Shown here piece after piece: positions 10,585 to 36,001 of a stretch of DNA of 64,000 nucleotides (position 1 is the first letter of the stretch; each line of letters begins with the position of its first letter). Made by a program: the position numbers and the translations under genes. The DNA is from Octopus vulgaris (Eukaryota), in contig OX597826.1 in the NCBI GenBank assembly GCA_951406725.2, forward strand, positions 4,650,001 through 4,714,000, given 5' to 3'. The notes beneath the pieces were generated by a model. The model did not search any database. It saw only the letters and a list, made by a program, of their open reading frames with translations, and had not been told where the DNA came from.

Positions 10585-11044
10585 CAGCCATTTTGTGCTT
10601 CATAGTTTGACATTTTGAATCCATGATAGTAACAAAAATACCAAATTGAAAATTAAGTATTTTGAAACACATATTGAAAATTGTGTGTGAATTGTGCATT
10701 AATTTCTGCTTTGTAGTAAAATACGCTCAGGCACACATATAAGTATTTGTATGTGTTTTTCAGTGTTGCTTTTTCTGTGTTTATTCTTGTTTTTTTTTAA
10801 CAAAAAATGTAGCCTCGAAGTTGTTTTCTATTGATTCACATATTCAGCCAGTGCATATTTTATTAACTTATGCTGTCACTGAAAATGTTTAAATAAAACA
10901 CATAGAAACGTAGACAAAATATGAACGGTTCAAACAGTACAATTTGTATTAAACTGGAAACCGTAAGCCAGAGAAACATAAGAGTAAACTAAAGCTATTC
11001 GATACTCAAATAATACGCGTCTATTGATTCCAACCTATGATGGT

Positions 11045-11334
11045 GGAGACACGTGGCCTCGTGGTTAGAGCAGCGGTCTCGCGGTCGAGGGATCGCGGGT
11101 TCGAATCGCAGACCGGCCGATGTGTGTGTTTATGAGCGAAAACACCTAAACTCCACGCGACTCCGGTAGAAGGTAATGGCGAACTTCTGCTGACTCTTTC
11201 GCCACTCATTCCTCCTGTATCTTGCAGCTCATCTGCGACGGACCGGCGTCCCGTCCAGGTGGGGAACCTATACGCCAAGAAACCGGGAAACTGGCCCTTA
11301 TGAGCCAGGCATGGCTCGAGAAGGAACAAACAAA
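11045..11334 (+). mobile_element. Intact-looking tRNA-derived SINE (family F) with a 13-bp TSD
   Basis: A box TGGCCTCGTGG, B box GGTTCGAATC, central ctgcgacggaccggcgtcccgtccagg (V/Meta-domain-like), 3' hairpin GAGCCA-ggca-TGGCTC, (AACA)n tail; TSD AACCTATGATGGT at 11032-11044 and 11335-11347. Confidence 0.93.
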
Positions 11335-11474
11335 AACCTATGATGGTATTAAAGCACTTTGAGAGATTGCATTTCTCAAGAGGCTTCTCGCGCTCGAATT
11401 TTTGAGTCAGTGGAAATACAAAACCAATACGATTTAGACAGAAATGATTTGGTGGTCAAGGTAGAAGCTTTATT

Positions 11475-11866
11475 ACTGACTTGTACTTGTGACGGCATTC
11501 ACCCAGGGTGGGTCGAGCCGGCTTCTTCTCTGGTCTTGACGGCATCACGAACCATGGTGGCCCACGCTCGACGGTCCTATGCGAGGTCACTGGAGACAGC
11601 GAGCAATTCGCAGTTCCATCTGCGCAGACCGACCACCTGCGGACCTGATAGTTCGGAGAGGTCGTCCTTTATCGTCATTGCCCAGGTCTTCAGCTGCCCG
11701 CCCGTGCGTTTGCGCCAGCTGGGAAGTGGAGGTGGGAGGAGGACTTTGCGAATCAGCTCACCCTCTGGACACCGGGCCGCATGACCGAGCTACCTTCAAC
11801 GTCGGTGTAGAAGCACCGAAGAGAGAGGCCGGAGATTCAGACGATGACGAAGACCGAAAGACCGAA
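11475..11866 (-). mobile_element. 5'-truncated RTE-clade LINE (ORF C-terminus plus short 3' UTR) with a 12-bp TSD
   Basis: Minus frame: HRR*R*LGHAARCPEGELIRKVLLPPPLPSWRKRTGGQLKTWAMTIKDDLSELSGPQVVGLRRWN...DLA*DRRAWATMVRDAV; final stop at 11499-11501; (ACAAGT)2 tail; TSD AGAAGCTTTATT at 11463-11474 and 11867-11878. Confidence 0.92.
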
Positions 11867-12057
11867 AGAAGCTTTATTGAAGACCCTTCTCTCTTTGTAA
11901 GCTTTATAGATGGTCAATGATACGATAAGAATCTAAGGAGATTTTTCTCATTTAATAAGCGACGGTTCTTTCTTGAAAGCATGCGGATGAATTTTACGTT
12001 TATCAGTGGCAAAATCGTAAAACATACACATTCATATTCATATTGTTACACAGATGT

Positions 12058-33578: not shown

Positions 33579-34172
33579 TATATTATATTATATTATATAG
33601 ATGTGTTTGAATTTTATACACACTCGTATGCAAACACACACGAAGTGCGTGAGAGAGTATGCATTTATATAACAACACATGCATACATATATAAATACGC
33701 ACACATATATTATATATATATTATATATATCCTATCAATTTGTTTGTCTGTCTCTGACTCTCTGTTACTCCACACTCCCTTCTCTCTGTCTTTCTCCCTC
33801 TCTCTCTCTCCGATATAATACATACACGCACGCGCGCACACATAGTTGCATATATTTCTTCTGTATTTTTGTGAAATGTCAAGGTCGGTCATGCAGAAGG
33901 TGAGTGTCCTGTCGTGGGGGGAATCATGTCGGTGATGATATGCATTTATCCAACGGAAAAGGTGCTGCCACACATTGAATTGATTGCATCATATTGGTAT
34001 TGACACGGATAAAAGGAGCGGATCGCTTCTAAGATGCCATGCCTGCATATAACATTTCACAACTTCAAAGCTTCTCTCTTGCCACTTCAAACACTCAACA
34101 CCCAAACGCACACATGTATAACTACACATATATCCATACATATTTATATACATACATGCATACATACATTCC

Positions 34173-34438: not shown

Positions 34439-34838
34439 GTGTGTGTGTGTGTCTGTGTTTGTGTGTATGAGCGTGTGTGTGCACACACGCACAGATAGAG
34501 AGAAAGGGAGATGTGTTGGAAGTCTTTATGGTGTGAAAGTTTACGATGTAAGACAATTGAGAGTGATGCGTGCCGGCTTTAAACAATGTCTCATTTCCCT
34601 ATACTCATTTCACCAAAAACTGTACAATCCAATTTGCAATGTTCCTACAAGATATATATATATACACGCACACAGATACATTCATCCATGCACATATCTG
34701 TGATCGTATGTGTGTGCATATTGTCTTACATCGTAAACTTTCACACCATAAAGACTTCCAACACATCTCCCTTTCTCTCTATCTGTGCGTGTGTGCGCAC
34801 ACACACTCATACACACAAACACAGACACACACACACAC
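34439..34838. repeat. 119-bp near-perfect inverted repeat with a 162-bp spacer
   Basis: Arms at 34439-34557 and 34720-34838; two mismatches by manual comparison. Confidence 0.95.
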
Positions 34839-34844
34839 TTCAAA

Positions 34845-35000
34845 ATTTGATACTGATTAGAAGATCGAAAATCCACCTGAAGATTGTCGGTAGCAGACAT
34901 GAAACATTTGTAGTGGCGGTTTATTTAATTTATATTAAAATTTTATGTATTGATTAAGTCTTTCCTTGTTTGGTTTTAAAATAGTGGTTTTGTCTCGAAT

Positions 35001-35003
<3 letters not shown>
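34845..35003 (+). mobile_element. Family D-related hammerhead-bearing element ending in (TA)n
   Basis: Contains the motif at 34873-34916; 3' end ttgtttgg...aatagtggttttgtctcgaatt resembles 6132-6168. Confidence 0.7.
34873..34916 (+). ncRNA. Minimal type-I hammerhead ribozyme-like motif
   Basis: Stem I CCAC/GTGG; CTGAAGA; stem II TGTC-ggtagca-GACA; GAAA; stem III ACA-tt-TGT; GUA triplet. Confidence 0.78.
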
Positions 35004-35093
<90 letters not shown>

Positions 35094-35096
<3 letters not shown>

Positions 35097-35304
35097 TTAA
35101 TCCAAACATGAAAACACAAAGAGAAAACACAACAACGCGAGGCCGTGGAACAAATATAGTATTATTGGACGCTCAGGAAGGAAGGGAAGAAGGAGGTTTT
35201 AACGTTTCGAGCGGAACTCTTCGTCGGAAACATAAGAGAAAAAAAAGATCCAGAGAAGGGAAGACAGAGGAAAAAAATCGCCAACGGTACACACGCGGTC
35301 ACAT
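35094..35304 (-). mobile_element. Family C element, second copy
   Basis: Reverse complement of 31845-32051; abuts (TA)n(TG)n. Confidence 0.85.
35196..35231 (-). ncRNA. Minimal hammerhead-like motif in family C copy 2
   Basis: Minus strand GTTT-CCGACGA-A-GAGT-tcc-GCTC-GAAA-CGTT-AAAAC; the stem II change keeps pairing as U-G. Confidence 0.65.
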
Positions 35305-36001
35305 TTATACATAAATATAATTTGAGTGGGTACACACATATGTACTCAATAACACGAAAATTTGATATTTTAAAATGTATTTTGATGTTTTATGTAATAA
35401 ATCGTTATGTAATAAATTGTATACATTATATATATATATATACACACACTCGTGTGTGCATAGGCATTGGTGCCTCGCTACTATACTCGTTTTTGTGTAT
35501 TTTCTAATACATTGCCTAGCTTTTATACTGTATTGTTTCATATGATTTTCTTATGCTAATATCATGTTTTTTCTTTTTCTTTTTTAGGTAAGTACATTCG
35601 GACGCATTTTCCCGCTTTATTCCAAACATGCAATATGAGGTATGGATGCTTGCAATATCACATTAATTATGTAATATATACCACACAGGGTAGGCAAATG
35701 GCGATTCCAATATATATATATACGTAGAGTATATTGGAACACAAACGTCCAAGTGTAGACTACATTGATATCTGCTTTTATATGTGAATGCATATTGGTG
35801 TATGTGTTCGTACCACTGTATGTGCCTATCCATATTTAAGGAAATAAGTGAATCATTCAGACATATACACACACACACACACACAAAGGGCATTTGTGAT
35901 CAAGATTCTTCATCACAACTTTTCGATGAACAGACACGTGAAACTCTGAGTGACAGTTTTTGTGATGGCTTTTCAGATTTAACTTCTGAAAAATATGTTC
36001 G

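What the first reader, a model, noticed from the sequence alone, without database searches (positions are those of the whole stretch)
34873..34916. Best-preserved hammerhead core in the window
The core nucleotides CUGAAGA, GAAA and GUA are all present, with 4-bp stems I and II and a 3-bp stem III. The main departure is a U-U pair closing stem II. Predicted cleavage is after 34912. If the region is intronic on the plus strand, it could cut host pre-mRNA.
Basis: partly seen in the sequence, partly recalled or inferred. Interest (0 to 1): 0.7.

Follow-up and report, generated by a model that had tools for sequence, protein, structure and literature searches.

The report
Spliced Penelope retrocopy carrying silent hammerhead
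This is a real hammerhead-ribozyme motif, but it is one of 165 identical copies belonging to a Penelope-type jumping gene; the copy here matches that element's front end with its intron precisely removed, so it was likely copied from spliced, uncut RNA, and on its own it is predicted to cut poorly or not at all.

Summary
The motif is present as described and is not chance (0 of 200 shuffles). It is not a lone ribozyme. The 44-mer has 165 exact copies genome-wide. It lies in a 175-bp insert (34837-35011) identical to exon 1 plus exon 2 of a young Hydra-clade Penelope-like retrotransposon, with a 1.1-1.3-kb GT-AG intron removed exactly.

The U·U closing stem II is a clade norm (14 of 25 published Hydra families), not a defect. 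Stem III cannot close as a monomer (P about 0.01), no partner core lies nearby, and no host gene was found, so cutting of host pre-mRNA is unlikely.

The family records its mechanism:
- 293 spliced junctions versus 26 intact donor sites.
- 24 of 25 head-to-head pairs have one 175-nt and one 255-nt arm.
- Splice state matches in 16 of 16 scorable pairs.
- Copy 5' ends do not pile up at the cut site (13 versus 14 in a control).

This fits reverse transcription of one sense, uncleaved RNA from two internal start sites and argues against the antisense-template idea. The scan found this reading before on other DNA of this genome. Ordinary ribozyme, informative family.

The parts
34837..35011 (+). 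Solo, intron-less copy of the 5' end (pLTR) of a Hydra-clade Penelope-like element, short (175-nt) form without the 80-nt tail
   Evidence: No mismatch to exon 1 + exon 2 of parent locus L063 over 34837-35011; 121-bp core 100% identical at 40 loci listed
34837..34863 (+). Exon 1 (27 nt); starts in an initiator-like TCACTTC of the parent (motif recalled), inferred transcription start
   Evidence: In parents it is followed by GTATGT and an intron of 1105-1312 nt (9 of 12 loci with both ends found); none of 58 spliced copies extends more than about 9 nt further 5'
34863..34864 (+). Exact exon-exon junction (AAG|ATC)
   Evidence: Parent reads AAG|GTATGT...TTTTAG|ATC; 293 junction copies versus 26 donor copies
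34873..34916 (+). Type I hammerhead core: helix I 4 bp, U10.1·U11.1 plus 4-bp helix II, quasi-palindromic helix III strand ACAUUUGU, predicted cut after A34912
   Evidence: 165 exact copies, reversed-pattern control 0
34862..34922 (+). Predicted helix I extension (34862-67 with 34917-22) beyond a 5-nt bulge; exon 1 can lengthen it further in the spliced form
   Evidence: predicted only, depends on fragment ends and is not shared by all sister subfamilies
35006..35095 (.). (TA)n(TG)n microsatellite, the insertion target; the element's 3' end runs into it
   Evidence: the same (TA)n context at sister copies
34720..34838 (.). 119-bp inverted duplicate of single-copy host DNA at 34439-34557, abutting the element's 5' end; likely made by fold-back synthesis during insertion, where sister copies carry an inverted element arm
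   Evidence: 98% complementary arms; arms found only at this locus; origin inferred, empty site not seen

Best explanation
The motif is the type I hammerhead of a young Hydra-clade Penelope-like retrotransposon, and the window holds a 175-bp intron-less copy of that element's front end, likely made by its reverse transcriptase from a spliced, uncut sense RNA and predicted to be nearly inactive as a lone ribozyme. Shown: identity to the parent's exons, exact intron loss, an RT and GIY-YIG parent, the (TA)n target, and two 3' end points (175 and 255 nt from the start). Inferred: a pLTR promoter starts the mRNA at about 34837 and the intron is spliced. The element protein nicks a (TA)n tract and primes cDNA at an internal site just downstream of the hammerhead, as shown in vitro for PAc. 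It copies through the uncut hammerhead to the RNA 5' end, giving a short dead-end insert. Usually the other break end is primed at the second site on the same RNA, giving head-to-head 175/255 arms; here that end likely folded back on host DNA instead. The hammerhead is likely kept by selection in the parent element for dimer- or protein-assisted processing at another step, and rides along in this copy.
For: Family: 165 exact copies and 2311 copies of the family's 3' half. Parent ORF has YRDD, DKT, CxCX5C, GIY-YIG-type YIGST and CxxC/CxH motifs, matching the Hydra definition; 74 homologs at E <= 0.001. Splicing: of the first 100 of 494 listed copies, 58 are spliced, 22 unspliced and 20 truncated or ambiguous. 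Six hammerhead haplotypes each occur in both forms (counts there include overlapping loci). In a sister subfamily the spliced junction matches a GT 4 nt further upstream (L069). Pairing: 24 of 25 two-arm inverted pairs are long plus short; 12 are spliced/spliced, 4 unspliced/unspliced, 0 mixed, and 9 have a truncated arm. Cut site: 13 true 5' ends among 17 matches versus 14 among 15 in a control window 6 nt downstream. Constraint: across sister subfamilies the core and stems are unchanged while loop II, N7 and 10.1/11.1 vary, and the common helix III variants self-pair.
Against: No RNA evidence: transcription start, splicing and cleavage are read from DNA copies only. The initiator and the cap-derived G are not established; 14 of 25 non-C starts have G but most are explained by an inverted arm. 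One pair (L145) has both arms starting at the cut site, and about half of the cut-site ends join host or (TA)n DNA versus 1 of 14 controls (counted by eye). That could mean rare cleavage, but TA/TG microhomology confounds it. Stems show no compensatory changes within the family, so structure support is by invariance only. No fully open ORF copy was seen among the 36 long loci fetched (longest 822 aa, broken near the C-terminus). Clade placement is by motifs, without a tree. Matching arms could also arise if one arm is copied from the other.
Confidence: 0.87

Rival explanations
1. One reading: this copy is an active cis-ribozyme that cuts a plus-strand host pre-mRNA.
For: Complete core and GUA triplet. 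Helices I and II are well populated in some fragment lengths, including host context (P up to 0.77). Plus-strand splice-like signals lie nearby. U·U is natural in this clade.
Against: Helix III P <= 0.015 in every monomer context. Its dimer duplex is -2.9 kcal/mol versus -5.8 to -10.0 for four self-pairing sister variants, though one rare variant is weaker at -1.0. No partner core in 84 kb. No host gene shown. The copy is identical to its parent's exons, so it shows no locus-specific selection.
Confidence: 0.06
2. The short spliced copies are a self-propagating non-autonomous mini-element (SINE- or retrozyme-like) that lost the intron once and now amplifies from its own copies.
For: Spliced copies outnumber intact donors 293 to 26. 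One haplotype (GUU triplet) was seen only spliced. Retrozymes are proposed PLE derivatives (bioRxiv 10.64898/2026.07.22.740005, abstract and introduction read).
Against: Six haplotypes have both spliced and unspliced members, the GUU haplotype also turned up unspliced (L246), and a sister's junction follows its own donor. This implies repeated origin from each parent. Copies are solo or head-to-head, not tandem arrays.
Confidence: 0.07
3. The motif is a chance match in AT-rich DNA.
For: No Rfam hit; fold z-score +0.66.
Against: 0 of 200 shuffles hit. Same position in the pLTR and same layout as published Hydra hammerheads. Core is invariant across subfamilies that are 84-89% identical.
Confidence: 0.01

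Closest known systems
Hydra clade of C-terminal-EN Penelope-like elements and their hammerheads (Craig et al. 2021, PMC8557442; passages, section 11, supplement File S1 Hydra sheet and File S2 read)
   Same: DKT, CxCX5C linker, CxxC/CxH around E and N, (TA)n target, hammerhead in the pLTR with U10.1·U11.1, short near-palindromic helix III and GUA/GUU triplet.
   Different: KWK instead of RWK. Unit about 5-6 kb (estimated) with a 1.1-1.3-kb pLTR intron, versus generally under 3 kb. Its hammerhead sequence differs from all 25 listed families, including Hydra-1_oBim. Spliced short copies are not mentioned in the parts I read.
PAc (Poseidon of Anolis), internal RT initiation and protein-assisted hammerhead (Frangieh et al. 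2024, PMC11167929; main text up to methods read)
   Same: Two 3' end points defining a tail downstream of the hammerhead, AT-rich targets, and uncleaved RNA as the template.
   Different: Tail is about 80 nt here and lies before the ORF start, whereas the PAc ORF starts at stem II. Here the evidence is genomic and includes spliced templates and paired long/short arms.
Penelope of Drosophila virilis (Schostak et al. 2008, PMC2377424, passages; Cervera and de la Pena 2014, PMC4209133, results and discussion read)
   Same: pLTR promoter, short first exon, 5'-UTR intron ending just upstream of hammerhead helix I, young near-identical hammerhead copies.
   Different: There the intron is 75 bp and genomic copies are described as mostly retaining it. 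Here 58 of 80 classifiable copies lack it.
Metazoan non-LTR retrozymes (bioRxiv 10.64898/2026.07.22.740005; abstract, introduction and part of methods read)
   Same: Short, non-coding, type I hammerhead, PLE-related.
   Different: Not tandem; ends are set by the transcription start and RT start sites, not by ribozyme cut sites.

Membership tests
Type I hammerhead ribozyme | Conserved core CUGANGA, GAAA, UH | tested here: met
Type I hammerhead ribozyme | Helices I and II can form | tested here: met
   P 0.74-0.97 in the 44-mer, falling to about 0.13 in 232 nt of context
Type I hammerhead ribozyme | Stable helix III in the monomer | tested here: not met
   P about 0.01; the 3-bp, 2-nt-loop form is disallowed
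Type I hammerhead ribozyme | G10.1-C11.1 pair typical of canonical and minimal hammerheads | tested here: not met
   U·U here; U-A, A-U, A·G, A·C and U·G in sisters
Type I hammerhead ribozyme | Rfam model match at gathering score | tested here: not met
   0 hits in the window
Type I hammerhead ribozyme | Self-cleavage | not testable with these tools
   No bench data; genomic 5' ends show no excess at the site
Metazoan PLE hammerhead (dimer-dependent) | Located in the pLTR of an RT + GIY-YIG element | tested here: met
   L062, L063, L237-L254
Metazoan PLE hammerhead (dimer-dependent) | Palindromic helix III strand allowing a dimer | tested here: inconclusive
   6 of 8 pairs with two central U·U in this subfamily; fully self-pairing in the common sister variants
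Hydra-clade PLE | DKT motif, CxCX5C linker, CxxC and CxH in a C-terminal GIY-YIG EN | tested here: met
   Translations against the definition
Hydra-clade PLE | N-terminal RWK motif | tested here: inconclusive
   RIKWK found: a K for R change
Hydra-clade PLE | Insertion into (TA)n | tested here: met
Hydra-clade PLE | Generally short (under 3 kb); a tendency, not a rule | tested here: not met
   About 5-6 kb per unit including intron and 3' region (estimated)
Hydra-clade PLE | Phylogenetic placement of the RT; absence of the CCHH motif by alignment | not tested
   No tree or alignment with named Hydra proteins was run; Pfam found nothing on the two ORF pieces scanned
PLE insertion anatomy | Inverted 5' copy and optional 3' tail | tested here: met
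   44 of 58 spliced copies have an inverted arm upstream; 24 of 25 pairs long plus short
PLE insertion anatomy | Intron retained in genomic copies | tested here: not met
   Window copy is spliced; 58 spliced versus 22 unspliced of 100; 293 versus 26 genome-wide
Non-LTR retrozyme | Tandem units each with a hammerhead | tested here: not met
   Single core in the window plus 10 kb each side; sisters solo or inverted

The most novel reading that the evidence does not exclude
Penelope 'intron retention' comes from architecture, not from an antisense template. In vivo the element's enzyme primes one sense RNA at two internal sites from both ends of a (TA)n break. Spliced mRNA gives only 175/255-nt dead-end head-to-head copies like this one (0 of 58 spliced copies extend past the start region). 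Only read-through RNA that keeps the intron can carry the ORF. The hammerhead stays uncut during copying. This family gives countable genomic evidence for the mechanism.
Probability: 0.6. Interest if true: 0.6.

Novelty: new member of a known kind. Interest (0 to 1): 0.38.

Why it matters
The ribozyme itself is a textbook passenger, so the host-cleavage idea should be dropped unless bench data say otherwise. The family is the useful part. How Penelope elements keep introns and form head-to-head repeats was left open in PMC3846280 (Discussion read), which favoured self-priming on an antisense template. Hundreds of exactly spliced copies, paired arms that match in splice state and differ by the tail, and no excess of ends at the cut site favour a sense, uncleaved template primed twice. 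That would be in vivo support for the in vitro PAc result. It also warns that many 'orphan' hammerheads in such genomes are spliced PLE leaders.

Tried and rejected
- Rfam scan: no hit.
- Pfam on the two parent ORF pieces: none.
- A family search for RT in the own genome did not complete and was not needed.
- An upstream extension seen in L029 proved unique, not the ORF end.
- RNA: no RNA holder listed on record. Contigs laid on a neighbouring stretch gave no joints and only short pieces, so transcription and strand of the locus remain open.
- Host gene: 150 of 230 candidate ORFs scanned; only a below-cutoff Atrophin-1 match in a low-complexity stretch.
- Cap-derived G at copy 5' ends: inconclusive.
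- Splicing as a switch for hammerhead folding: predicted for this subfamily group (helix I P up to about 0.9 spliced versus mostly <= 0.1 unspliced). It is absent in the GATCAA sisters, high in unspliced L198, and depends on fragment length, so it was not adopted.
- Pile-up of 5' ends at the cut site: not seen (4 of 17 and 1 of 15 matches dropped as point mutants or internal deletions).
- A literature search for the kinetic cost of a non-G-C 10.1-11.1 pair gave nothing usable.
- Searches for spliced or intron-less Penelope copies or this family in print found no such report. The library is limited. Arkhipova 2003 and the supplements of PMC4209133 and PMC11167929 were not seen and may bear on this.

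Full report
Observation. A hammerhead descriptor finds this one hit on both strands of the window and none in 200 dinucleotide shuffles. Rfam has no match at gathering score and the local fold is not unusually stable (z +0.66). Helices I and II are well populated in the isolated motif. The proposed 3-bp helix III would close a 2-nt loop, which is disallowed, and the 2-bp form has a probability near 0.01.

It is a repeat. The surrounding 121 bp are 100% identical at 40 listed places, with 1082 first-look candidates. The exact 44-mer occurs 165 times with a reversed control of 0, and a pattern for the family's 3' half occurs 2311 times. Copies end in (TA)n at one of two points, about 175 or 255 nt from their start, and often sit head-to-head.

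The parent. Widely spaced copies flank an ORF with reverse transcriptase (YRDD, DKT), a CTCRDKSKC linker, a GIY-YIG-type nuclease (YKC...YIGST) and CYLC/CRH motifs. These match the Hydra clade of Penelope-like elements as defined in PMC8557442 (section 11). RWK reads KWK here and the unit is longer, and I ran no tree. The RT region has 74 homologs, and the only informative names are two Octopus bimaculoides proteins. None of the 36 long loci fetched has a fully open ORF; the longest is 822 aa.

The window copy is spliced. In parents a 27-nt exon is followed by GTATGT, an intron of 1105-1312 nt (9 of 12 loci with both ends found) and TTTTAG, then the hammerhead exon. The window has the two exons joined exactly at 34863/34864 and shows no mismatch to L063 from 34837 to 35011. 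Genome-wide there are 293 such junctions and 26 intact donor sites. Of the first 100 of 494 copies listed by a 28-mer just downstream of the cut site, 58 are spliced, 22 unspliced and 20 truncated or ambiguous. No spliced copy runs more than about 9 nt past the inferred start. Six hammerhead haplotypes occur in both forms (whose counts include overlapping loci). In a sister subfamily the junction matches a GT 4 nt further upstream in L069, while other parents of that group read differently at that spot. This points to repeated copying of each parent's spliced RNA rather than one intron-less lineage.

The U·U pair is normal. In File S2 of PMC8557442, 14 of 25 Hydra-clade families have the same U10.1·U11.1 arrangement (counted by eye), with short near-palindromic helices III and A or U at many cut sites. 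Within this genome the core and stems are unchanged across subfamilies of 84-89% identity, while loop II, N7 and 10.1/11.1 vary. The common helix III variants self-pair. That suggests constraint in the parent lineage, though there are no compensatory changes. The window's subfamily has a weaker dimer helix: -2.9 kcal/mol against -5.8 to -10.0 for four sister variants and -1.0 for one rare variant.

Does it cut? There are no bench data. Published relatives do not cleave as monomers and only weakly as dimers (PMC4209133, results and discussion read). The PAc hammerhead needs the element's protein, and uncleaved RNA is its main template (PMC11167929, main text read). If cleaved RNA were commonly copied, 5' ends would pile up at 34913. 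They do not: 13 true ends among 17 matches, against 14 among 15 in a window 6 nt downstream. Against my reading, one pair has both arms starting at the cut site, and cut-site ends more often join (TA)n or host DNA; TA/TG microhomology can explain this. For this locus, no second core lies within 84 kb and no host exon was found, so cutting of host pre-mRNA is improbable but untested.

Mechanism. In the 100-copy sample, 24 of 25 two-arm inverted pairs have one long and one short arm. All 16 pairs with both junctions scorable agree in splice state (12 spliced, 4 unspliced). Together with the two internal RT start sites shown for PAc, the simplest model (inferred) is that both ends of a (TA)n break prime on one sense RNA at the two sites and copy towards its 5' end. 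Spliced mRNA then gives only short dead-end inserts, and ORF-bearing inserts come from read-through RNA that still has the intron. This argues against the antisense self-priming proposal in PMC3846280 (Discussion read), although copying of one arm from the other is not excluded. The window copy has only the short arm. In place of the inverted arm it has a 119-bp inverted duplicate of single-copy host DNA abutting its 5' end, likely from fold-back synthesis at the left break end; the empty site was not seen.

Novelty. Hammerheads in PLE pLTRs and the Hydra clade are known, and this is a new member. I found no printed report of spliced PLE leader retrocopies, with the limits stated. Earlier notes of this scan reached the same reading on other DNA of this genome. 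I had reached it independently and tested it here. Verdict: real, ordinary ribozyme motif; moderately interesting family evidence.

Noticed in passing
window 34439-34557 and 34720-34838: 119-bp, 98% inverted repeat of single-copy host DNA whose right arm abuts the element; could form a long hairpin if transcribed, and likely arose at insertion.
   Followed up: partly
window 41106-40993 and 6129-6022 (minus strand); 41312 (minus): Decayed tails of an older related pLTR family; a degenerate hammerhead-like core lies about 200 bp upstream of the first, separated by a (TA)n tract.
   Followed up: partly
window 35567-35594 (+) and 33897-33905 (+): A pyrimidine tract followed by AG|GTAAGT (looks like a recursive splice site, label recalled) and a strong donor-like AAG|GTGAGT; neither tied to a gene.
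   Followed up: no
L062, L063, L237, L238 ORFs: Asparagine/lysine-rich insert of variable length between RT and nuclease, like the N-rich inserts described for Adineta Penelope elements (PMC3846280).
   Followed up: no
L145 (G000:C2:209628180-209629060): Head-to-head pair whose two arms both begin at the predicted cut site with (TA)n between them: the best single candidate for a cleaved RNA template.
   Followed up: partly
L089, L091, L116, L121, L246: Subfamily with a GUU cleavage triplet and palindromic ACAAUUGU helix III, a natural variant for comparison in cleavage assays.
   Followed up: no
L063, L249 versus L239, L243, L254: Two lengths of the region between ORF end and splice donor (about 0.8 kb and about 1.9-2.0 kb) within the family.
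   Followed up: no
window 11024-11917: GC-richer stretch with several overlapping open frames and no Pfam match; possible exon or promoter region.
   Followed up: no
window 35160-35277: Another repeat, about 87% identical to sequence in L003 and L004, just downstream of the insertion.
   Followed up: no
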